A DNA stretch of 64,000 nucleotides from Staphylococcus phage vB_Sau_P68. The translations under genes were made by a program, and so were the position numbers. This document shows positions 24,022 through 50,397 of this stretch, piece after piece. The stretch's first letter is position 1, and each line of letters opens with the position of its first letter. The stretch lies in sequence record OL741057.1. The stretch is one strand, 5' to 3'. Under the pieces are notes generated by a model. That model searched no databases and was not told where the DNA came from. It worked only from the letters and a program-made list of their open reading frames with translations.

Positions 24022-25317
24022 TTATTTATAATTTTGTATATAGTCAATATAACTTATACTTTTTAGTGTATCACTTTTTTCCTGTTCTGTAGCTTCTCTA
24101 ATATTGTACCCTTTAACAGTGTTTCTTTTACCCTTAGCACAATCTACAATGGATGCTACATCTGAACTTATTCTTTTTGTCATCATATGCAAAGGCAACT
24201 TAATATCTTCTGAACCTTTAGTTGCTACATATACTTTAATTCTTTTATCTGTTATTGTTTTAGCTACTTCTGAAAAGTCTTCATCTTCATATCTCCAAAG
24301 ATAACCACATGATTGCTTTTTACTTCCTGATACACACCCTCTAATACTTGATGAAGGTAATCCTAAATTACTAAAGTATTCTTGTGCTTCTTTTAAAGTG
24401 TCAAATCTAATTTCTTCTAGTGTCTTAATATTTAATCCTACTACAGGTTTAAATCTTTTCTTAACCCCTCTACGTTTCATTAAACCTTTAACATTACCAA
24501 CACTCATATTAAATTTATTTGCAGTTTCTTCTGAAGAGTGTTCTTTATAGAATTCTATAATCTCTTTTTCATTTTCTTTATATTTTGTAAACAGTTCTAT
24601 TCTCTCAGTATAATTTAAATTAATTTCTAAGAACGAACTTATAGTATTTAATATGTCCTTTTTGTCCTCATTAGGATAATAGATATATAGTAACTTTATG
24701 TTATTATCTTTACAGTATTTTTCTTTTAGTGAATCTAGCTCTTGTATCTTTTCTAAGGGCGTACTCCATGTTCCAGTAGCTTGTTTAATATGTTGTTGCC
24801 CCATATATTCAATAGCATATTTATTACCATTTAATTCTATATAAAAATCTAATCTTTGTGGTCTCTCTAATCCTGTGTAGATAGATTTTTCACATATAAA
24901 TTCGATACCATTTTCTTTAAGTATAGTCTGTATAATTCTCTCTCCGATACTTTTCATATGGTCTTGAGGACAATTATTATTAGTATTGTTCTCAAAACTA
25001 TTCCATATAACATCCCATTTATTCCCTTGCGGTGATAGTAGTAAACATCTCTTTGTTGATTGCAGATTTTCAGGGTAGTTTATAATACTATACCCTCTAC
25101 TTTTAGCGTAAGAAGAAAAATATTTCTTTTTACCTTCTTCTGTAAGTTGTGTTAGTCTTATTTGTTTTAAGTTATTTAAGTTATTGTAGGACACGTAACA
25201 TTCACAACCTTTAAATTTACCTTCCAAAACAACACCTAAATGTTTTGTATCTTTTGCTCTACCTCTATATTCTACGATTTTTATATTTTTTTCTTTTGCT
25301 AATTTTTCAATTTCCAT
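24022..25317 (-). CDS. free-standing homing-endonuclease-like protein (431 aa): N-terminal PD-(D/E)XK (DUF559/Vsr-like) nuclease core plus C-terminal NUMOD-like DNA-binding motifs
   Basis: Motif RLDFYIELNGNKYAIEYMGQQH matches RFDFCLFKENDIILIEYDGEHH in the ORF at 52354-53298. C-terminus has SCGYLWRY and KGYNIRE, which are NUMOD-type motifs. Own promoter TTGACA-17-TATCAT and RBS AAGAGGTG lie upstream. Confidence 0.7.
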   Translation of the reverse strand: MEIEKLAKEKNIKIVEYRGRAKDTKHLGVVLEGKFKGCECYVSYNNLNNLKQIRLTQLTEEGKKKYFSSYAKSRGYSIINYPENLQSTKRCLLLSPQGNKWDVIWNSFENNTNNNCPQDHMKSIGERIIQTILKENGIEFICEKSIYTGLERPQRLDFYIELNGNKYAIEYMGQQHIKQATGTWSTPLEKIQELDSLKEKYCKDNNIKLLYIYYPNEDKKDILNTISSFLEINLNYTERIELFTKYKENEKEIIEFYKEHSSEETANKFNMSVGNVKGLMKRRGVKKRFKPVVGLNIKTLEEIRFDTLKEAQEYFSNLGLPSSSIRGCVSGSKKQSCGYLWRYEDEDFSEVAKTITDKRIKVYVATKGSEDIKLPLHMMTKRISSDVASIVDCAKGKRNTVKGYNIREATEQEKSDTLKSISYIDYIQNYK

Positions 25318-25412: not shown

Positions 25413-25449
25413 ATTCTATAATAAATACGAACTTATGTTCTGGCTTTAT

Positions 25450-25840
25450 CTGATGCGGTCAAGTACGAAAACGATTTATTTATTTACAAACGCTACTTTG
25501 TAAACCTGTGTTATTTCACATGCACTAGCTTTCACTACGTGACTAGACTATTTGTTATCCCTAATTAGTAGGGCAAGGATTTTTCTTCTCCCAATAGCTT
25601 GGAGCTTTACTCTCATCTTATAATGAGATAGTCGTTGAACGTTCCTCTTATGATTTACTATCACTTAGAGTATTCGATGCTATACACCCATTGTACTTCT
25701 CCTTAGGATTTAACCTTAGAGTATCTCAATCATTTTTTCTACTTTCGTAACCTTCTAGTTTATTGTTTCCAATTCCTATGTGGTTGATTGAGCTTTAGAA
25801 GTTTCATAGCAGTTAACCCTTAATACTCACAGATTACTCT
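25450..25840 (-). other. candidate second group I intron of the tail tube gene (ORF-less, ~391 nt); alternatively a degenerate ribozyme remnant
   Basis: Minus-strand core elements R (GUUCAACGACUA, complement of 25629-25640) and S (AAAUAGUCU, complement of 25545-25553). Long stretch closely similar to the lysK intron core (CUAAGUGAUAGnAAAUCAUAAG...GUUCAACGACUA). Candidate P1 pairs exon GCUCAU with intron GUGAGU just after the 5' splice site. In-frame stop lies immediately after the putative 5' splice site, as in lysK. Confidence 0.45.
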
Positions 25841-25910
25841 ATGAGCAGAGTGTAAAATTCTCAATTTCCTCTGTCACTATTTCATTGGTCTGCCACGTCT
25901 CGTTATAGTT
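25839..25910 (-). CDS. tail tube protein exon 2 (NYNETWQTNEIVTEEIENFTLCS, ending in TAG unless intron 2 is spliced)
   Basis: In-frame continuation of exon 1 after removal of the 333-nt intron. The junction SAN|NYNETWQ matches the continuous tail tube sequence recalled for K-like phages. Confidence 0.7.
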   Translation of the reverse strand, partial: NYNETWQTNEIVTEEIENFTLCS

Positions 25911-26243
25911 CACTTATACCCTATCTCTCGATATATTTAAAGGGGTTAGACTGTCCCATGTCCCTTATTTATAAGGTGACTACCTATTACAGTCGTTGAA
26001 GCTTCCCACTCTCGTAGGCTTGCCTGCGGATTTCCTATTAATTGAGTACTTAGGACATTAATAATGTGTCGCTAGTTATTAATGCTTTTATCTCACCGTA
26101 TACTATCCAATTAATTTTTTCTGATTTCTCAACATTCACGCTTACTTTTTCAAGTTACGTTGTAGTTTAATTGGCTTTAAGGTGTTCCCGCAATTTCAGG
26201 TATTATTCGACTATACATTACTGTATAGAAGCAACAATTATTT
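25911..26243 (-). mobile_element. group I intron (ORF-less, 333 nt) interrupting the tail tube gene
   Basis: Canonical core on the minus strand: P AAAUUGCGGGAA (complement of 26185-26195), Q AAAUCCGCAGGCAAG (26019-26033), R UUCAACGACUGU (25990-26001), S GGGACAGUCUAACC (25944-25957). Exon 1 ends in U that pairs with intron GUUG. Intron ends in G. Its length is a multiple of 3, and an in-frame stop lies 1 codon into the intron. Confidence 0.8.
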
Positions 26244-26582
26244 ATTGGCACTACATCCGTGGTAACTAATGATAACTTGTTTAGTTAAATTATCTACTAC
26301 TAAGATATCAATGATATCTTTCTTAAGAATTTCTTCACCAAGTGAAGCATATCCTAAATCTGCAAAGTTTTCTTTTTTCATACGTAAACGTTCTACTGTA
26401 ATTGTACCTTCATAACGTAAGTATACGTGTTCTTGAGGCATGATAGAACCGATTTCGTATACACCAGTTGTACCGTATTCACGAGTACCTGATGCTGATT
26501 GTGCTCTTCCTACCGGTTTACCTTTAATCATAAGTAAGACGGTATTACCAGTATGGACGGTTTGTTTAGCTTCTGATGCCAT
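26244..26582 (-). CDS. tail tube protein exon 1 (113 codons)
   Basis: MASEAKQTVHTGNTVLLMIKGKPVGRAQSASG... lies immediately downstream of the tail sheath gene. The annotated ORF ends HGCSANK* where the intron begins. Confidence 0.8.
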
Positions 26583-26654: not shown

Positions 26655-28418
26655 TTAGGCTTGTAATGTTTGTTGCTTGTAAACCAAGCTAACAGAGATT
26701 TTCTTGAAGCTTCTGATTGGGTAAACTGTCATTGAAATTCTTGCTTTGTTACCTTCAACAATAACTTGTACGTCTTCAGCAGGGAAGTCTTGAATTTCAT
26801 TATCACGTTTCTTACGACCCAAGTAAGATTGGATAAAGTCTTTAATGATTGAAGCACTTGTATTGATAGTACGAGTACCAATGAATTGGTCTTCAAGTTG
26901 AACTTTAAGCTCACTTACTAAGAAGTCATTAGCTTCCCCAACAGCCATCTCAGCCTTAACTGGGTCTGACTTATCGTTGAATGTAGTTACGTCATCAACG
27001 ATTCTGAAGAATGTATTAGTACGGTTACGAACAAACTCGATACTAATAATACCATTTTCATTTAATTCATCTAAATCAATTGACTCGTATACTTGGTCTA
27101 ACGCACTTACACGTAATGGTTTGAAAGTGATTGATTCACCGATTTCTAAACCACTTGCAAGACCACCTAAAGCTACAGCTACCATATAAGCAGGTACGTG
27201 GTTTTTACGTCCATCATCCATAACAAAAGTACCTGAGTTAGCTACTAATGATACACGAGGATTAGATAATGATGCTTGTCTACCGAACAACTGTTCTTTA
27301 GATTCATTAAATCCTCCGCCAACAATAGCTCTCATTGGTTCTCCTGCGTCAGAACGTTCTTTAACGAAAGCAGATACCTCTGCATGAACTGATTGTTTAG
27401 ATGATAATGGGACAATGTAGTATCCGCCTTCATGTGCAAATTTCTCTAATTTATCTGCCCATGTAGCAGGTGGTTCACCGTTAGTACCGCCTTTTAACTT
27501 AGTTAATTCGAAAGGCTCAATAGTTCTAATAGGTGAAGTAGCTGTTACTGTAGCTGATTCTTCTCCTGCTTCAACCTCTACATTACTTGGTACTTCTCCT
27601 TCTGCATTAAGTTGCTCGAAAGATACAATACCATTATAAGCTGTTTGTTTTTCTAAGTCACCGAAGACTGCTTTAACGTATACAGCTTTATCTTTAATAT
27701 TTACATCTGATGCTTTATCTAATTTACTAGATTCTAAGTTTTTATCTCCGAAAGGTGATAACTTAGCTTCAAAATCAGGTAATTGATTAATGTCTGTAAT
27801 AATAGCGTTAGTATAGTCATAAGCACCGCTAGTTAAGTCATATGATTTAACTTCTTGGTCTCCGACTTTTAATACCAAACGACTTGCTTTTTGAGTTTCT
27901 TCATCATGTTCTACAGAGAAAGTTGCGTTAGCTTCTTCTCCTTTGTACTTGATTGTGAAGATATTACCGATATTATCATAAACTTCATTGAAACGGTCAT
28001 CTTGGAAAATTACTCTTAAACGTAATGAATCACTTAATGTATTCTTTTCCAATCCTACTTGAATGTTATTAGCAACATTACCGTAGATTTGAGATGTTAT
28101 TTTTAATCCGCCAGCTTCTACTGAAGCAGGTTTAGCATCCTCAGTACGCATAGCTAAAATCTTACCTGCTGTATAGTTAGGGTTAGAACCCCATGCTAAT
28201 TCAATTGCATCAAGTAATTCTCCTGAACGGAATAAACGTTTAGCTTGTGCATAGTTACGTAATTCATAAACTGTATTTGGTTCTCCGCCTTCTGCTGAAC
28301 CGATTAAGCAAAATACTTTTTCACTTGAACCTGCTGAGCCACCGATACCTGAAGTATCTACTTCAATAGATGCATGAGGGCGGGTAATAGGTCTTCTTGG
28401 GAATGGTTCTACTGCCAT
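26655..28418 (-). CDS. tail sheath protein (587 aa)
   Basis: 587 aa, as in the K-like tail sheath. Position is upstream of the tail tube gene. Confidence 0.9.
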   Translation of the reverse strand: MAVEPFPRRPITRPHASIEVDTSGIGGSAGSSEKVFCLIGSAEGGEPNTVYELRNYAQAKRLFRSGELLDAIELAWGSNPNYTAGKILAMRTEDAKPASVEAGGLKITSQIYGNVANNIQVGLEKNTLSDSLRLRVIFQDDRFNEVYDNIGNIFTIKYKGEEANATFSVEHDEETQKASRLVLKVGDQEVKSYDLTSGAYDYTNAIITDINQLPDFEAKLSPFGDKNLESSKLDKASDVNIKDKAVYVKAVFGDLEKQTAYNGIVSFEQLNAEGEVPSNVEVEAGEESATVTATSPIRTIEPFELTKLKGGTNGEPPATWADKLEKFAHEGGYYIVPLSSKQSVHAEVSAFVKERSDAGEPMRAIVGGGFNESKEQLFGRQASLSNPRVSLVANSGTFVMDDGRKNHVPAYMVAVALGGLASGLEIGESITFKPLRVSALDQVYESIDLDELNENGIISIEFVRNRTNTFFRIVDDVTTFNDKSDPVKAEMAVGEANDFLVSELKVQLEDQFIGTRTINTSASIIKDFIQSYLGRKKRDNEIQDFPAEDVQVIVEGNKARISMTVYPIRSFKKISVSLVYKQQTLQA

Positions 28419-41029: not shown

Positions 41030-42839
41030 CAAAGTAGAATTGTTTATTTCCGTCTTGATTATAATCAGTAGTAACAAATGTAGAACCGAAGCTTGTACCG
41101 TTTCCTTCTTTAAGAAGTTCTTGTATTCTTGTTAATCCGATATTAGAATATACAGATGCTTGAGCCCAATGGTCGTCACCTTTACGTTTAATTACCTGTC
41201 TCATTTCTTCTGTTTTCTCATCTTCTTCATCCATAATTAATACATTTTGCCAATGTTTTAAGAAAGTTCTTAAATCATCGTCTACTTCTTGGTACATTCT
41301 AATATTCTTAGTTTTTAAACCTTGAATATATAATTTGTTCTGCATTAATTTATCTACTGTAACCGTATTTTTATTTTCATTAAATTCAGGTCTTAACTGT
41401 CCTGTGGATTTAGGAGAAGATTTATAAGTACATCCAAAAACTTTGTCTTCCCCAAAATGATTAATGAGTTTTAAAACATTATTACCTGAGTCACCGTTAT
41501 CTGCAATTATAATGTCGGGGTCGTACTTAGATATTTCCCAAATGATTTTTTCTAAATCTGCCTCTACCATATCAGGTCTAGACATTTTCTTGACAGAAAA
41601 TAATCTAATTAAATCTTTTTTACCGTCAGGTAAAACTCCATGAATAGAAATCCAATGAGTATTACCCCAATCTATACCTACGGAAATATGTGTATATCTA
41701 TCTCGTCTCATTAATTGTTTTTCTGCAACAGGTGATTTATTTTCAAATACATCTTCTTCTAAAACACGCATTTTAACATCTTCAAAAGGCATACCTAACG
41801 AATAGTTGTAAAAAGCCTGTTTGGATTCAGTATTCATTTCTTTTTCAACAAGTTGGTCTGCAGAAATCCATACAGCGTTCATTTGAGATATATAGTAACC
41901 TCTAATACCTGAGTTATTTTTGGTTCTATCAGGGTAACGACATTCCCATACTCCATTATACCATCTATCTAGAGGTTTACCGCATTTTTGACATACATAC
42001 TGGTAAGTACCATCTTGGACTGTTTTTGCTGTTTCATCTATACCATCAGGATTAACTAATAATAAATTACCGCTTTCCATCAAGTTATTTTCATCGTACG
42101 GTGCATATTTCATCTCATTATGGTAATCACAGTGCTGACAAACGTGTGCATAATACCATTGGTCTGACTGTTGGTAAAGTTTATGAATACCGATTCCAGG
42201 TGCTGAAGGTGTTGAGAACCTACGTACTATTTGGAATGTAGAACTTGACATGGACTCTAGTGCAGAAGACTCAGCAAGGCTATTTACCCTCTCATATTCA
42301 TCCATTGCAAGAAAATCTATATCTACACCCTCTACTGTTCCTGGTTTACTACTTGTTCTAAAGAATAAACTAGAGTTTCTTATCTGTTTATACCCTAAAG
42401 AATCTTTATCCCAATTAACTATATCAGTAAAATATCTCTTCTCTAATACAGGATTTAACCTAGATTGAACAAATTTTTTCATCTGCTCGTTGGTCGGGAA
42501 GGTGTAAAGACATTTAGGTGATTTATAACTATACATATCTGCAAAATGAACCATTTCCATTACACTCATCTCACTCAAACCAAGCTGTCTGCTTTTTATT
42601 ACTGCTTTATTTGGATGAGTGTCATTTACTATACGGACTTGCCACGGTCTATGAGCCTGTGCTTTACTTCTATCCCTCTTAGGAATACTGAAAGTTATAG
42701 GGTGACCTCTTAACGTGTGATACTTAAGCATATAGGTAGAAGGGTTTAACATATTGATTATATGGTCTACCTGTTCTCTTGTTATTTTTTCTGTTTGAAA
42801 TGTTTCTTGTGCTATCTTAATTAGTTCTTTTCCATCCAT
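41022..42839 (-). CDS. terL: terminase large subunit (605 aa)
   Basis: Size and position at the head of the morphogenesis module. Confidence 0.85.
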   Translation of the reverse strand: MDGKELIKIAQETFQTEKITREQVDHIINMLNPSTYMLKYHTLRGHPITFSIPKRDRSKAQAHRPWQVRIVNDTHPNKAVIKSRQLGLSEMSVMEMVHFADMYSYKSPKCLYTFPTNEQMKKFVQSRLNPVLEKRYFTDIVNWDKDSLGYKQIRNSSLFFRTSSKPGTVEGVDIDFLAMDEYERVNSLAESSALESMSSSTFQIVRRFSTPSAPGIGIHKLYQQSDQWYYAHVCQHCDYHNEMKYAPYDENNLMESGNLLLVNPDGIDETAKTVQDGTYQYVCQKCGKPLDRWYNGVWECRYPDRTKNNSGIRGYYISQMNAVWISADQLVEKEMNTESKQAFYNYSLGMPFEDVKMRVLEEDVFENKSPVAEKQLMRRDRYTHISVGIDWGNTHWISIHGVLPDGKKDLIRLFSVKKMSRPDMVEADLEKIIWEISKYDPDIIIADNGDSGNNVLKLINHFGEDKVFGCTYKSSPKSTGQLRPEFNENKNTVTVDKLMQNKLYIQGLKTKNIRMYQEVDDDLRTFLKHWQNVLIMDEEDEKTEEMRQVIKRKGDDHWAQASVYSNIGLTRIQELLKEGNGTSFGSTFVTTDYNQDGNKQFYFDE

Positions 42840-47062: not shown

Positions 47063-47136
47063 GGCTCATTGGTGTAACTGGTTAACACACTGCCCTGTCA
47101 CGGCAGAGAGTACGAGTTCGAGTCTCGTATGAGTCG
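47063..47136 (+). tRNA. tRNA-Asp (anticodon GUC)
   Basis: Cloverleaf with acceptor GGCTCAT/ATGAGTC (one G-U pair), D-stem GTGT/ACAC, anticodon stem CTGCC/GGCAG with loop CUGUCAC, T-arm ACGAG-TTCGAGT-CTCGT. No encoded CCA. Confidence 0.85.
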
Positions 47137-47446: not shown

Positions 47447-47950
47447 ATGACTAATGAAGCTAAACAACCTAAAGTTGTTGGAGGAATAAACCTTAGTACA
47501 CGAACTAAGAGTAAAACATTTTGGGTAGCAATTATATCGGCAGTAGCAGTATTTGCTAATCAAATTACAGGTGCTTTTGGTTTAGATTATTCAGCTCAAA
47601 TTGAGCAAGGTGTCAATATCATAGGTTCTATACTAACATTATTAGCAGGTTTAGGTATTATTGTTGATAATAATACTAAAGGTCTTAAAGACAGTGATAT
47701 TGTTCAAACAGACTATACAAAACCTCGTGATAGTAAAGACCCTAATGAATTTGTTCAATGGCAAGCAAATGCAAACACAGCTAGTACTTTTGAATTAGAC
47801 AACTACGAAAACAATGCAGAGCCTGATACAGATGATAGTGATGAAGTACCTGCTATTGAAGATGAAATTGATGGCGGTTCAGCACCTTCTCAAGACGAAG
47901 AAGATACCGAAGAACACGGTAAAGTATTTGCGGAGGAGGAAGTTAAGTAA
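47447..47950 (+). CDS. holin (167 aa, two TM segments, acidic C-terminal tail)
   Basis: Two hydrophobic segments and a charged tail. Stop overlaps the endolysin ATG (TAATG). Size matches the phage K holin. Confidence 0.75.
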
Positions 47951-48584
47951 TGGCTAAGACGCAAGCAGAAATAAATAAACGTTTAGACGCATATGCAAAA
48001 GGAACAGTAGATAGCCCTTATAGAGTTAAGAAAGCAACAAGTTATGACCCTTCATTTGGTGTAATGGAGGCAGGAGCAATTGATGTAGATAAATATTATC
48101 ACGCTCAGTGTCAAGACCTTATTACAGACTATGTATTATGGTTAACAGATAATAAAGTTAGAACTTGGGGTAATGCTAAAGACCAAATCAAACAAAATTA
48201 TGGTACTGGATTTAAAATACACCAAAATAAACCTTCTACAGTACCTAAAAAAGGTTGGATTGCAGTATTTACTTCAGGTAGCTATACACAGTGGGGTCAC
48301 ATAGGTATTGTATATGATGGAGGTAATACTTCAACATTTACTATTTTAGAGCAAAACTGGAACGGTTACGCTAATAAAAAACCTACAAAACGTGTAGATA
48401 ACTATTACGGATTAACTCATTTCATTGAAATACCTGTAAAAGCAGGAACTACTGTTAAAAAAGAAACAGCTAAGAAAAGTGCAAGTAAAACACCTGCACC
48501 TAAAAAGAAAGCAACATTAAAAGTTTCTAAGAATCATATTAACTATACAATGGATAAACGAGGTAAAAAACCTGAAGGAATGGT
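47950..48584 (+). CDS. lysK: endolysin LysK-type, exon 1 (CHAP domain)
   Basis: [42 protein letters not shown]... is near-identical to the LysK CHAP domain. Exon ends ...KPEGMV at GU before a group I intron. Confidence 0.85.
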
Positions 48585-49541
48585 GTAAAAAATAATCTAT
48601 AAAATAACTTGTAATTCTATTAGTTCTATGGTATAATACTTATATAATGATGTAGGAGGTATTATACATGGAAGAAATTTGGAAAGACATTCAAGGATAT
48701 GAAGGTAAATATAAAGTTAGTAACCTAGGAAATGTTAAATCAATAAAACGAACTGTTAAACACGCAGGAAGTAATACTAGAACTTTTCCTGAAACTTTAT
48801 TGAAACCTAATAAAGTAGCATTTGATTATCTTCAAGTAACTCTATATAAAGAAGGTAAAAGAAAATGTAGGTACGTTCATAATTTAGTAATGGAAGCTTT
48901 TGTAGGAGAAAAGGAAAAAGGTTTTGAGACAAATCATAAAAATGAAATAAAAAGTGATAATAGGCTTGAAAACTTAGAATACATTACTGCAAAAGAAAAT
49001 AATAATTATGGGACACGAATACAAAGAATGTCTGAAAAAAATACTAATGGGAAAAGAAGTAAGAAAATTAAAGGTACTCATTTAAAAACTAAAGTTGAAA
49101 TTATTTTACCTTCTATTGAAGAAGCAAAAAGACAAGGATATGGTAATCATATATCTGAAGTTTGTAATGGTAAAAGAAATTCATGTAAAGGTTATAAATG
49201 GGAATTTATAGATTAAGCACTGCATATATCGTGAGGTATATGTACTAAAAACATAAATTGCTTTGAAGAACCTTAGAGCCTTGATACCACAATAAAGCTG
49301 AAAAGACTTTATGAGGGTTTAACAAGTTCAAGGATTGGTTTGTTTAGCATCACTACTCCTAAGTGATAGAAAAATCATAAGGAGAATGTTCAACGACTAG
49401 AGGATTGCCTCCTCGTAGGGTTCAAGTGAACTCGAAAGAAGAACTATCTCACAGAGATAGAGAGAAATAGTCTGCTCACGTCCTGTAATGGGAGTGCTAG
49501 GTAATACCTAGAGCTAGATTAACGAACTAGTGAAACATAAG
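48585..49541 (+). mobile_element. group I intron in the endolysin gene carrying an HNH homing endonuclease ORF (I-KsaI-like arrangement)
   Basis: Exon junction GGU|G...G|AUA restores [18 protein letters not shown]..., as in continuous LysK. Intron core has R GUUCAACGACUA and S AAAUAGUC. Stop codon lies immediately after the 5' splice site. Omega G at 49541. Confidence 0.8.
48668..49216 (+). CDS. intron-encoded HNH homing endonuclease (182 aa)
   Basis: N-terminal GYEGKYKVSNLGNVKS (NUMOD4-like). HNH region VHNLVMEAF...NHKNEIKSDNRLENLEY. C-terminal GYKWEF. Confidence 0.8.
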   Translation: MEEIWKDIQGYEGKYKVSNLGNVKSIKRTVKHAGSNTRTFPETLLKPNKVAFDYLQVTLYKEGKRKCRYVHNLVMEAFVGEKEKGFETNHKNEIKSDNRLENLEYITAKENNNYGTRIQRMSEKNTNGKRSKKIKGTHLKTKVEIILPSIEEAKRQGYGNHISEVCNGKRNSCKGYKWEFID

Positions 49542-50397
49542 GATACACAACGATGCGGGTCGTTCTTCAGGACAACAATACGAGAATTCATTAGCTAAAG
49601 CAGGTTATGCTAGATATGCTAATGGTATTGCTCATTACTACGGTTCTGAGGGTTATGTATGGGAAGCAATAGATGCTAAGAATCAAATTGCTTGGCATAC
49701 AGGAGATGGGACAGGAGCAAACTCAGGTAACTTTAGATTTGCAGGTATTGAAGTCTGTCAATCAATGAGTGCTAGTGATGCTCAATTCCTTAAAAATGAA
49801 CAAGCAGTATTCCAATTTACAGCAGAAAAATTTAAAGAGTGGGGTCTTACTCCTAACCGTAAAACTGTAAGATTGCATATGGAATTCGTTCCTACTGCAT
49901 GTCCTCACCGTTCTATGGTTCTTCATACAGGATTTAATCCAGTAACACAAGGAAGACCATCACAAGCAATAATGAATAAACTTAAAGATTATTTCATTAA
50001 ACAAATTAAAAACTACATGAGTAACGGAACTTCAAGTTCTACTGTAGTTAAAAAAGGTAAAACAAGTAGTGCAAGTACACCGGCAACTAGACCAGTTACA
50101 GGTTCTTGGAAAAAGAACCAATACGGAACTTGGTATAAACCGGAAAACGCAACATTTGTTAATGGTAACCAACCTATAGTAACTAGAATAGGTTCTCCAT
50201 TCTTAAATGCTCCAGTAGGAGGTAACTTACCGGCAGGAGCTACAATTGTATATGACGAAGTTTGTATCCAAGCAGGTCATATTTGGATTGGTTATAACGC
50301 TTATAATGGTAACAGAGTATATTGCCCTGTTAGAACTTGTCAAGGTGTTCCACCTTCACATGTACCTGGAGTTGCCTGGGGGACATTCAAGAGTTAA
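49542..50397 (+). CDS. lysK: endolysin LysK-type, exon 2 (amidase-2 and C-terminal SH3b cell-wall-binding domains)
   Basis: [56 protein letters not shown]... continues to the SH3b-like C-terminus. In frame with exon 1 after splicing. Confidence 0.85.

What the first reader, a model, noticed from the sequence alone, without database searches (positions are those of the whole stretch)
25911..26582. ORF-less group I intron splitting the tail tube gene
What the sequence shows:
- The tail tube ORF stops prematurely (…HGCSANK*) at 114 aa.
- The 333 nt that follow on the minus strand carry all four conserved group I core elements in the right order: P AAAUUGCGGGAA, Q AAAUCCGCAGGCAAG, R UUCAACGACUGU, S GGGACAGUCUAACC.
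- The exon ends in U, which can pair with an intron GUUG guide sequence. The intron ends in G.
- Removing the 333 nt joins ...CSAN to NYNETWQTNEIVTEEIE... in frame, reproducing the continuous tail tube sequence of K-like phages.

Why it matters:
- Introns in essential virion genes are rare.
- Phage K itself is described with introns only in lysK and polA.
- This resembles the multi-intron orf142 of phage Twort.
Basis: partly seen in the sequence, partly recalled or inferred. Interest (0 to 1): 0.75.

Follow-up and report, generated by a model that had tools for sequence, protein, structure and literature searches.

The report
Group I intron in tail tube gene

Summary

- **The intron (I1).** Window 26243..25911 (minus strand) is a 333-nt ORF-less group I intron. 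It lies exactly between codons 113 and 114 of the tail tube gene.
- **Evidence.**
  - Intronless alleles (phages G1 and Stab23) are colinear across the site.
  - The exon ends in U, pairing CAAU with the intron guide GUUG, and the intron ends in G.
  - A P2-P9 fold with the P3/P7 pseudoknot is 93% paired across 12 relatives. 29 of its 59 pairs show compensatory changes.
  - Rfam RF00028 aligns full length at 29.3 bits, below its cut-off of 50, because of an insertion of about 140 nt in P5.
- **Correction 1.** Removing the 333 nt does not restore the gene. A second ORF-less group I intron (I2, 25859..25472, 388 nt) follows a 51-nt exon. Removing both gives the 142-aa protein.
- **Correction 2.** This is not novel as a kind.
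  - Twort orf142 is this gene and has three introns.
  - Kayviruses 812, A3R and others have two.
  - Copies of I1 97.6-98.5% identical lie unannotated in public genomes sampled here, including vB_Sau_CG.
- **Side finds.**
  - The 3' 82 nt of this gene hold at least 11 intron insertion sites, with the guide retargeted at each site checked.
  - I2 appears to splice after a G rather than a U.

Interest is low to moderate.

The parts
26244..26582 (-). Tail tube gene exon 1 (codons 1-113, MASEAKQ...HGCSAN). The last base, U at 26244, is the 5' splice-site U of I1.
   Evidence: ORF list. G1 coding sequence nt 1-339 aligns here. tblastn of the spliced product finds tail tube genes.
25911..26243 (-). 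Intron I1: 333-nt ORF-less group I intron, the feature reported.
   Evidence: Absent precisely from G1 and Stab23. RF00028 29.3 bits, E = 8.9e-6, full-length alignment. P2-P9 fold 93.2% paired, with 29 of 59 pairs compensatory. No sense-strand ORF of 30 aa or more inside it.
26232..26235 (-). Internal guide sequence GUUG (I1 nt 9-12). It pairs with exon CAAU to form P1, with a U.G wobble at the splice site.
   Evidence: Sequence. In relatives inserted at other sites the guide changes to match the local exon.
26185..26196 (-). P element (J3/4 plus the 5' strand of P4), AAAUUGCGGGAA.
   Evidence: The P4 pairs covary.
26019..26033 (-). Q element (3' strand of P4 plus the start of P6), AAAUCCGCAGGCAAG.
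25989..26000 (-). R element (J6/7 plus the 5' strand of P7), UUCAACGACUGU.
   Evidence: P7 reads GACUGU/ACAGUC here and GACUAU/AUAGUC in relatives, a compensatory change.
25944..25957 (-). S element (3' strand of P7), GGGACAGUCUAACC.
26034..26179 (-). Large P5 extension (about 145 nt). It includes an 8-bp P5a (CCAAUUAA/UUAAUUGG) and a 9-10-bp hairpin (CAUUAAUAA...UUAUUAAUG).
   Evidence: MFE and centroid folds. P5a covaries, with 6 of 8 pairs changed on both sides. RF00028 treats the region as an insertion of about 140 nt.
25860..25910 (-). Exon 2: a 51-nt micro-exon encoding NYNETWQTNEIVTEEIE.
   Evidence: G1 coding sequence nt 340-390 aligns here. Translation.
25472..25859 (-). Intron I2: a second ORF-less group I intron of 388 nt, with P7.1/P7.2.
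   Evidence: Absent precisely from G1 and vB_Sau_CG. R and S motifs present. Fold 95.9% paired, with 35 of 82 pairs compensatory across 6 homologues. RF00028 gives only 15.9 bits, misaligned.
25433..25471 (-). Exon 3: FSYLTASDKART plus the stop codon.
   Evidence: G1 nt 391-429 aligns here. Seven synonymous and no non-synonymous changes against 184DA.
24022..25317 (-). Free-standing 431-aa nuclease-family gene just downstream, with promoter-like hexamers read by eye. It is the candidate mobility enzyme for the ORF-less introns.
   Evidence: PHROG 7140 'intron encoded nuclease', E = 8.8e-126. Weak NUMOD-like Pfam hit. Equivalent genes sit next to intron-bearing tail tube genes in CG, Stab23 and JS1 and in phage 812 (PMC6445280).

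Best explanation
The window comes from a K/Twort-like Staphylococcus myovirus (Twortvirinae). Its tail tube gene (tmpA, the homologue of Twort orf142) is split into three exons by two ORF-less group I introns.

**How I1 (26243..25911) is inferred to splice**
- The last four exon bases, CAAU, pair with the intron guide GUUG (nt 9-12) to form P1, with a U.G wobble at the cleavage site.
- A free guanosine bound in the P7 pocket attacks after U26244.
- The freed exon 3'-OH then attacks after the terminal G at 25911 and ligates exon 1 to exon 2.
- I2 (25859..25472) is removed in the same way.
- The resulting mRNA is 429 nt and encodes the 142-aa tail tube protein.

**Mobility (inferred).** The introns are selfish mobile DNA. 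They probably spread through the free-standing nuclease gene just downstream by collaborative (trans) homing, which drags short flanking exon tracts along.

**Shown here**
- The boundaries.
- Colinearity with intronless alleles.
- The conserved, covarying group I fold.
- Homology to known introns.
- Clustering of synonymous exon differences around the insertion sites.

**Inferred, not shown**
- Actual self-splicing.
- The role of the nuclease.
For: **Boundaries and product**
- The G1 intronless coding sequence maps to 1-339 | 340-390 | 391-429 of the window gene. The gaps are exactly 333 and 388 nt.
- Stab23 lacks I1 but has I2. vB_Sau_CG has I1 but lacks I2.
- The spliced product is 142 aa. 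It is 99.3% identical to single-piece tail tube genes in G1, SA5 and others. 230 records match the product at 99% or better.

**I1 structure**
- The unconstrained MFE already gives P2, P4, P5a, P6a, P7, P8 and P9.
- On 12 relatives, 93.2% of cells are paired against 32-41% when partners are slid.
- 29 of 59 pairs have changes on both sides, against 3-7 when slid.
- No shuffle out of 500 reached the observed value. The P3/P7 pseudoknot is included.

**Guide retargeting.** The guide matches the exon at each of five insertion sites:

| Site (G1 nt) | Exon / guide |
|---|---|
| 328 | GGUU / GACC |
| 339 | CAAU / GUUG |
| 366 | GAAU / GUUC |
| 374 | UCGU / GCGA |
| 402 | CCUU / GAGG |

**Rfam RF00028**
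- Full-length alignment at 29.3 bits, E = 8.9e-6, with P1, P2, P3, P4, P6, P8 and the P7 strands placed where I put them.
- Relatives score from 27.5 to 50.7 bits.
- The three Twort orf142 introns score 64-101 bits.

**Homology**
- Twort orf142-I2 nt 1-64 is 84% identical to I1 nt 1-67.
- I1 nt 49-120 matches the Twort nrdE intron at 86%.

**Mobility signs**
- 37 of the 42 differences from G1 lie in nt 267-429. All are synonymous.
- The I1-bearing alleles (window and vB_Sau_CG) share the flank at nt 316-347.
- A nuclease gene lies adjacent.
- In phage 812 mutants, intron loss and deletion of the nuclease gene occur together (PMC6445280).

**Literature**
- Twort orf142 is the tail tube gene and has three introns (PMC11878797).
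Against: - No RNA or protein data exist for this phage.
- RF00028 scores below its gathering cut-off (29.3 against 50). It was not reported at all in the whole-window search or the 3.5-kb search.
- The folding z-score of I1 alone is modest: -1.79, with 5 of 100 shuffles folding as well.
- I1 has no P7.1/P7.2, so it does not fit the usual phage IA2 picture.
- For I2, the base before the 5' splice site is G, not the canonical U. How I2 splices is therefore less certain.
- The nuclease's target site is unknown.
Confidence: 0.93

Rival explanations
1. The insert is a dead remnant or a non-splicing insertion. On this view the phage makes a truncated 114-aa tail tube protein, as most GenBank records annotate, or a 136-aa one. 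The downstream 'exons' would be decaying pseudogene sequence.
For: - Public records annotate the gene as a 114-aa protein (vB_Sau_CG, SscM-1, Golestan) or a 136-aa one (Stab23).
- RF00028 scores below its threshold.
- One relative, Golestan-105-M, carries a 232-nt deletion derivative that lacks the 5' strand of P4.
Against: - Exons 2 and 3 are under clear purifying selection. All differences from G1 and 184DA in nt 340-429 are synonymous.
- The ribozyme helices keep pairing through 29 compensatory pairs.
- The guide sequence tracks the exon at five different sites.
- The tail tube protein is 142 aa in virion proteomics of a K-like phage (table in PMC5618024).
Confidence: 0.03
2. It is a true group I intron but not autonomously self-splicing. 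Efficient splicing would need a phage or host protein cofactor, or the long P5 extension would act as a regulatory or assembly module that delays tail tube synthesis.
For: - I1 has an unusual P5 extension of about 145 nt and no P7.1/P7.2.
- P1 is only 4 bp and P10 about 2 bp (sequence).
- From general knowledge, many group I introns need chaperones or maturases in vivo.
Against: - From my recollection of Landthaler and Shub 1999 and Landthaler et al. 2002 (not readable here), the Twort orf142 and nrdE introns self-splice in vitro. Papers held here say only that introns of certain Twort-like phages self-splice from RNA transcripts.
- The extension contains a CCUAAG segment that may be a tetraloop-receptor-like element, and GNRA loops occur in P2, P6a and P9a (GUAA, GAGA, GAGA). 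These are typical of self-stabilising peripheral domains. This is my own reading of the sequence, not a test.
Confidence: 0.1
3. The insert is some other kind of element, such as a group II intron fragment, a small non-coding RNA gene, or a MITE/IS remnant. On this view the gene is read through by frameshifting or translational bypassing.
For: Only weak Rfam chance-level hits: group-II-D1D4-1 at 16.6 bits (E = 0.98-9.3) and RAGATH-12 at 14.1 bits.
Against: - These hits are at chance level and far below their cut-offs.
- The full group I topology is present and covaries.
- No terminal repeats or transposase are present.
- A 333-nt bypass is unprecedented, and a TAA stop follows one codon into the insert.
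Confidence: 0.01

Closest known systems
Twort orf142 (tail tube, TmpA) group I introns I1-I3. From my own knowledge: described by Landthaler and Shub, PNAS 1999, and the I2 ribozyme was crystallised by Golden et al. 2005.
   Same: - Same host gene, and the same 3' part of that gene.
- ORF-less group I introns separated by micro-exons.
- The MT151386 record annotates the coding sequence as a 4-piece join.
- The first 64 nt of Twort I2 (P1 loop, guide region, P2, P3/P4 5' strands) are 84% identical to window I1.
   Different: - Insertion sites differ: Twort at G1 nt 345, 386 and 409; the window at 339 and 390.
- The Twort introns score 64-101 bits on RF00028. Window I1 scores 29.3 and I2 scores 15.9.
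- I1 has a P5 extension of about 145 nt and no P7.1/P7.2.
Tail tube introns of kayviruses 812, A3R, 676Z, Fi200W, P4W and PM32, with their adjacent 'intron-encoded nuclease' gene
   Same: [quoted passage not shown]
- The PM32 record annotates two Intron_gpI features.
- The exons encode the same protein.
   Different: - The PM32-type introns sit at nt 355 and 391 and belong to a different sequence lineage that RF00028 detects (78-92 bits).
- Both window introns escape the Rfam gathering threshold.
Silviavirus and 184DA tail tube introns (Romulus, LSA2308, O1-102, 184DA), the closest sequence relatives of I1
   Same: - Same intron lineage and the same fold.
- The I1 core (nt 17-326) is 92% identical to the LSA2308 intron and 83% to a 184DA intron.
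   Different: - They sit at other sites of the same gene (nt 328, 366, 402), with a retargeted guide sequence and a different 3' tail.
The same intron at the same site in deposited genomes (pSco-10, vB_SauM_EW26, 357Saur119PP, vB_Sau_CG, vB_SscM-1 and others)
   Same: - 88-98.5% identical, at site 339, with the same exon flank.
   Different: - None of the records inspected here annotates it as an intron. The tail tube gene is deposited as a truncated 114-aa coding sequence.
- The vB_Sau_CG paper states that no intron was found in tmpA (PMC5526547).
[quoted passage not shown] From my own knowledge, examples are the cyanophage psbA intron with F-CphI and T4 mobE with I-TevIII. The concept is reviewed in PMC3984707.
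   Same: - ORF-less introns with a nuclease-family gene immediately next to the interrupted gene.
- Presence/absence polymorphism, and co-conversion-like exon tracts.
   Different: - Nothing is known about the cleavage site or activity of the 431-aa protein.
- Pfam shows only a weak NUMOD-like hit, and no solved relative exists.

Membership tests
Group I intron (I1) | Conserved core helices P3-P9 in canonical order, including the P3/P7 pseudoknot | tested here: met
   A hand-built P2-P9 structure was tested on alignment A1. 93.2% of cells are paired against 32-41% when slid, and 29 of 59 pairs are compensatory. P3 has 2 of 5 and P4 2 of 7 covarying pairs.
Group I intron (I1) | P, Q, R and S consensus elements, with P pairing Q and R pairing S | tested here: met
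   The four motifs lie at 26196-26185, 26033-26019, 26000-25989 and 25957-25944. RF00028 aligns them to AAUUGCGGgAAA, AAuCCGCAG, UUCAaAGACUA and AUAGUCu.
Group I intron (I1) | The 5' exon ends in U, which forms a U.G wobble with the internal guide sequence in P1 | tested here: met
   CAAU pairs with GUUG. The guide covaries with the exon at five sites in relatives.
Group I intron (I1) | The intron ends in G (omega-G), and excision restores the reading frame | tested here: met
   ...AAGUG|AACUAU. The coding sequence is colinear with G1 and Stab23.
Group I intron (I1) | Reaches the Rfam RF00028 gathering score (50 bits) | tested here: not met
   29.3 bits, E = 8.9e-6, found only in a narrow search and missed in wider searches. 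The shortfall comes from an insertion of about 140 nt in P5. Relatives score 27.5-50.7 bits. PMC11878797 notes that Rfam and GISSD models can fail on phage variants.
Group I intron (I1) | Guanosine-dependent self-splicing | not testable with these tools
   Needs an in-vitro splicing assay or RT-PCR.
Subgroup IA2 (the typical phage group I introns) | Extra helices P7.1 and P7.2 between P7 and the 3' strand of P3 | tested here: not met
   In I1 only AAU separates P7 (GACUGU) from the 3' strand of P3 (AGGUA). I2 does have both hairpins, and they covary. I therefore leave the subgroup of I1 unassigned.
Group I intron (I2) | Core fold and omega-G | tested here: met
   95.9% of cells paired, 35 of 82 pairs compensatory, and P3/P7, P7.1, P7.2, P8 and P9 all present. 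The intron ends ...AUCG|UUUUCG.
Group I intron (I2) | U at the 5' splice site, paired with G | tested here: not met
   Colinearity forces the junction GAG|AAUUUU. The guide-equivalent is CUC, which pairs with GAG. The same holds in BE08 and in Enterococcus phage EF7H (CAG|). Homologues in other genes appear to use GGU with UUGCC; that reading rests on the P1 pairing alone and was not checked against intronless alleles.
Homing-endonuclease-containing mobile intron | An endonuclease ORF inside the intron | tested here: not met
   I1 has no sense-strand ORF of 30 aa or more. I2 has only a 38-aa ORF.
Collaborative homing pair (ORF-less intron plus free-standing endonuclease) | A free-standing endonuclease gene next to the intron-bearing gene that cleaves the intron insertion site | tested here: inconclusive
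   An adjacent 431-aa ORF falls in PHROG 7140 'intron encoded nuclease', and the exon flanks look co-converted. Cleavage specificity cannot be tested here.

The most novel reading that the evidence does not exclude
I1 belongs to a lineage of ORF-less group I introns that moves between sites inside one short target, re-tuning only its 4-nt guide.

- Its core is 92% identical to an intron 27 nt downstream in another phage. That is more than the 88% it shares with a same-site copy.
- Across Twortvirinae, the last 82 nt of the tail tube gene carry at least 11 distinct insertion sites.

This pattern would be what ectopic transposition by reverse splicing predicts, rather than classical endonuclease homing. 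If so, this gene would be a natural system in which site-switching of group I introns can be reconstructed and tested.

A related oddity is that the neighbouring intron I2 seems to splice after a G paired with C, instead of the near-universal U.G wobble.
Probability: 0.3. Interest if true: 0.6.

Novelty: new member of a known kind. Interest (0 to 1): 0.27.

Why it matters
**Annotation.** Because Rfam's cut-off misses it, this intron, and I2 even more so, is deposited as a truncated tail tube gene in the public phage genomes inspected here. These include therapeutic-candidate kayviruses. One published genome description states that the gene has no intron. Recognising the intron fixes the annotation of an essential virion protein.

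**Biology.** It adds one more site and one more structural variant (long P5 extension, no P7.1/P7.2) to an already known phenomenon.

**Wider value.** This lies in the side observations, both of which are testable:
- The density of insertion sites in one 82-nt stretch.
- The retargeted guide sequences.
- An apparently non-U 5' splice site in I2.

Tried and rejected
- **Rfam at the gathering threshold, whole window.** It returned only a tRNA.
- **Rfam E-value mode on 3.5 kb.** It returned no group I hit, only chance-level snoRNA and group-II-D1D4 hits. I rejected this as evidence of absence after the 366-nt search gave a full-length RF00028 alignment.
- **Landthaler and Shub 1999 (PMC22036).** The paper is not held. 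Statements about self-splicing and exon skipping in Twort therefore rest on citing papers and on my own knowledge.
- **Pfam on the spliced tail tube protein.** No family matched.
- **PDB sequence search for the 431-aa nuclease.** Nothing significant was found.
- **A canonical U.G P1 for I2.**
  - I enumerated every in-frame 5' splice position. None pairs a U with a G in the guide region.
  - The 3' splice G is fixed by an in-frame UAA four codons upstream of exon 3.
  - I initially misplaced the I2 end by 4 nt (25476) and corrected it to 25472 (onward).
  - I also first misread Twort I3 as following a G. Re-derivation gives GCAU|, which is canonical.
- **An R-like match at 42419-42445.** It lies inside the intact terminase ORF, and I judged it chance.
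- **A custom covariance model.** I did not build one, because the RF00028 narrow search made it unnecessary.
Full report
**What is in the sequence**

On the minus strand, an ORF starts at 26582 and stops at 26240-26238 after 114 codons (...HGCSANK*). It sits directly after the tail sheath gene (26655..28418), which close relatives annotate as the major tail sheath.

- P at 26196-26185.
- Q at 26033-26019.
- R at 26000-25989.
- S at 25957-25944.

P pairs with Q (UGCGGG/UCCGCA) and R pairs with S (GACUGU/ACAGUC). The exon base before the insert is U (26244). GUUG lies at insert nt 9-12. The insert ends in G (25911). Deleting 26243..25911 (333 nt) joins ..CSAN to NYNETWQTNEIVTEEIE in frame.

**Is it a precise insertion?**

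Yes.
- The intronless tail tube coding sequence of phage G1 (429 nt) aligns to the window as nt 1-339, a gap of 333 nt, nt 340-389/390, a gap of 388 nt, then nt 390-429.
- Phage Stab23 is about 97% identical over the aligned parts of this region. It reads ...TCTGCAAATAACTACAATGAA... straight through the I1 site.
- vB_Sau_CG carries the same 333-nt insert at the same place. Its tblastn span is 759 nt, which is 426 + 333.
- The conceptual product of all three exons is 142 aa. It is 99.3% identical, in a single uninterrupted piece, to the tail tube proteins of G1, SA5 and many others. 230 records match it at 99% or better.

**A second intron was missed**

After ...EEIE the frame runs into NFTLCS*, so removing the 333 nt alone does not rebuild the gene.

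A second insert, I2 (25859..25472, 388 nt), separates a 51-nt exon 2 from exon 3 (25471..25433, FSYLTASDKART*). G1 and vB_Sau_CG lack I2. Stab23, WV and 184DA have it.

Exon 3 differs from that of 184DA by seven substitutions, all synonymous. It is therefore translated in that frame, which requires splicing.

I2 has these group I features:
- R and S motifs.
- P7.1 and P7.2 hairpins.
- A fold that is 95.9% paired in six homologues, against 36-42% when the partners are slid.
- 35 of 82 pairs with compensatory changes.

**Is I1 a group I intron?**

*Structure.* The unconstrained minimum-energy fold already contains P2, P4, P5a, P6a, P7, P8 and P9. Its z-score alone is modest (-1.79).

I wrote a P2-P9 structure that includes the P3/P7 pseudoknot. 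I then tested it on 12 relatives from nine phages (alignment A1). The results:

| Measure | Observed | Slid control |
|---|---|---|
| Cells paired | 93.2% | 32-41% |
| Pairs changed on both sides | 29 of 59 | 3-7 |
| Covariation score | 0.365 | 0.04-0.08 |

No shuffle out of 500 reached the observed values.

*Rfam.*
- RF00028 was not reported in the whole-window gathering search or in a 3.5-kb E-value search.
- A 366-nt search returned a full-length alignment (model positions 1-253) at 29.3 bits, E = 8.9e-6.
- That alignment places P1, P2, P3, P4, P6, the R and S strands and P8 where I had put them. It also shows an insertion of about 140 nt in the P5 loop. The insertion explains both the low score and the loss at the speed filters.
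- Relatives of I1 score from 27.5 to 50.7 bits.
- The three Twort orf142 introns score 64-101 bits.

*Homology.*
- Twort orf142-I2 nt 1-64 is 84% identical to I1 nt 1-67.
- I1 nt 49-120 matches the Twort nrdE intron at 86%.

*Guide sequence.* In relatives of the same lineage inserted at other positions of the same gene, the 4-nt guide changes to match the local exon. This is strong evidence that P1 is functional.

| Site (G1 nt) | Exon / guide |
|---|---|
| 328 | GGUU / GACC |
| 339 | CAAU / GUUG |
| 366 | GAAU / GUUC |
| 374 | UCGU / GCGA |
| 402 | CCUU / GAGG |

I1 has no sense-strand ORF of 30 aa or more. It lacks P7.1/P7.2, so I do not assign it to subgroup IA2.

**Mechanism**

*Inferred from the anatomy and the established group I pathway:*
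1. P1 forms between CAAU and GUUG.
2. Exogenous guanosine attacks after U26244.
3. The exon 3'-OH attacks after G25911.
4. I2 is removed likewise, giving a 429-nt mRNA for the 142-aa protein.

*Mobility (inferred):*
- A 431-aa ORF (25317..24022) lies just downstream of exon 3. By eye, a GC-rich hairpin with a T run follows exon 3, and promoter-like hexamers precede the ORF. I did not run the promoter/terminator scan.
- The ORF falls in PHROG 7140 'intron encoded nuclease' (E = 8.8e-126) and has a weak NUMOD-like Pfam match.
- Equivalent genes accompany intron-bearing tail tube genes in vB_Sau_CG, Stab23 and JS1.
- In phage 812 mutants, intron loss and deletion of this gene go together (PMC6445280).
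- 37 of the 42 nucleotide differences between the window gene and G1 lie in nt 267-429. All are synonymous.
- The two I1-bearing alleles share the flank at nt 316-347.
- This looks like co-conversion during homing. It fits the 'collaborative homing' scheme reviewed in PMC3984707.

**Comparison with what is known**

- The current Twort record annotates its tail tube coding sequence as a four-piece join.
- The PM32 and phage 110 records annotate two Intron_gpI features there.
- The window phage is about 95-96% identical to the PG-2021 series and to WV.
- 20 records have a best match to the I1 query at 95-99% identity. The five listed in that band cover the whole intron at 97.6-98.5% (pSco-10, vB_SauM_EW26, 357Saur119PP and others). 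vB_SscM-1 has it at 88%.
- In the records I inspected, the gene is deposited as a truncated 114-aa protein. The vB_Sau_CG paper says no intron was detected in tmpA (PMC5526547).

I1 is therefore a new, or at least undescribed, member of a well-known kind.

**Side observations**

1. *An insertion hot spot.* In G1 coordinates, tail tube introns sit after nt 328, 339, 345, 355, 366, 374, 386, 390, 391, 402 and 409. That is 11 sites in 82 nt across Twortvirinae. The I1 core (nt 17-326) is 92% identical to the LSA2308 intron at site 366 but only 88% to the same-site SscM-1 copy. The first 16 nt are only 69% identical. This suggests recent site-switching with guide retargeting.
2. *A non-U splice site in I2.*
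   - Colinearity forces the I2 5' junction to be GAG|AAUUUU.
   - The guide-equivalent just before P2 is CUC in two diverged variants: the window type and BE08, which have different P1 loops and different P2 helices.
   - Homologous introns in the tail-lysin and portal genes have UUGCC there. It would pair with exon GGU in the canonical way, although I could not confirm those junctions against intronless alleles.
   - Enterococcus phage EF7H has an I2-type intron at the homologous site. Judged against the intronless phage Revolver, its junction is CAG|UUC.
   - No in-frame alternative with a U.G pair exists.
   - I2 therefore appears to splice after a G paired with C. From general knowledge this is very unusual for group I introns. 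It needs RNA evidence.
3. *A lysK-type intron.* The window also holds an endolysin intron with a NUMOD4+HNH endonuclease ORF (48668..49216) and R/S motifs at 49390-49473.
4. *A defective copy.* The Golestan-105-M copy of I1 is a 232-nt deletion derivative that lacks the 5' strands of P4 and P5.

**Verdict**

The finding is real and correctly interpreted, but it is ordinary for this phage group. Confidence that I1 is a spliced group I intron is 0.93. Novelty is 'new member of a known kind'. Interest is about 0.27, carried mostly by the annotation consequence and by the two side observations.

Noticed in passing
window 25472..25859 (minus strand): A second ORF-less group I intron (I2, 388 nt, with P7.1/P7.2) lies 51 nt downstream of I1 in the same gene. 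The full 142-aa protein needs both introns removed. RF00028 gives it only 15.9 bits.
   Followed up: yes
window 25856..25864 and 25846..25850 (minus strand); L020:455-480; L021:410-470: The I2 5' splice site follows G (GAG|AAUUUU), not U. The guide-equivalent CUC pairs with GAG, so the near-universal U.G wobble seems replaced by G-C. The same holds in the BE08 variant and in Enterococcus phage EF7H (CAG|UUC). Homologous introns in portal and tail-lysin genes appear to use GGU with UUGCC, judged from the P1 pairing only.
   Followed up: partly
Related loci L001, L005, L006, L009-L015 (tail tube genes of Twortvirinae): The last 82 nt of the tail tube gene hold at least 11 distinct intron insertion sites (G1 nt 328, 339, 345, 355, 366, 374, 386, 390, 391, 402, 409). 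Up to three introns per gene were mapped here. One intron lineage occupies at least four of these sites (a more distant relative a fifth) with retargeted 4-nt guides. The window I1 core is 92% identical to an intron at site 366.
   Followed up: partly
window 24022..25317 (minus strand): A free-standing 431-aa gene of the PHROG 7140 'intron encoded nuclease' family lies just downstream of exon 3, preceded by promoter-like hexamers read by eye (no scan run). It is the likely trans-acting homing enzyme for the ORF-less introns. It has no solved relative and only a weak NUMOD-like Pfam hit.
   Followed up: partly
window 47950..50397 (plus strand): The endolysin gene is split like lysK of phage K. 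A CHAP exon ORF (47950-48588) is followed by a NUMOD4+HNH endonuclease ORF (48668-49216). Group I R/S motifs lie at 49390-49473, and then comes the SH3_5-containing exon ORF (to 50397). Rfam does not report this intron at the gathering threshold either.
   Followed up: partly
L003:1258-1489 (phage vB_SsapH-Golestan-105-M): The copy of I1 in this phage is a 232-nt deletion derivative that lacks the 5' strands of P4 and P5 and all of P5a. It should not fold into an active ribozyme. It is either an assembly problem or a phage that tolerates or bypasses a dead intron.
   Followed up: no
L004 (vB_Sau_CG, KY794641.1 16229-16987): The published description of vB_Sau_CG says no intron was found in tmpA, yet the genome holds a near-identical 333-nt I1 at the same site. 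The record annotates a truncated 114-aa tail tube protein. Similar truncated annotations occur in SscM-1, Stab23, Romulus ('truncated capsid protein') and others.
   Followed up: yes
window 47063..47136 (plus strand): A tRNA gene (64.6 bits) lies upstream of the holin and endolysin genes. Read by eye, the anticodon loop is CUGUCAC, that is GUC (Asp). It was the only Rfam hit in the window at the gathering threshold.
   Followed up: no
window 25433..26582 (minus strand): Joining the I1 5' splice site directly to the I2 3' splice site would skip the 51-nt exon and stay in frame, giving a 125-aa product. Exon skipping of this kind is reported for Twort orf142 (cited in PMC11878797). Whether it happens here is untested.
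   Followed up: no
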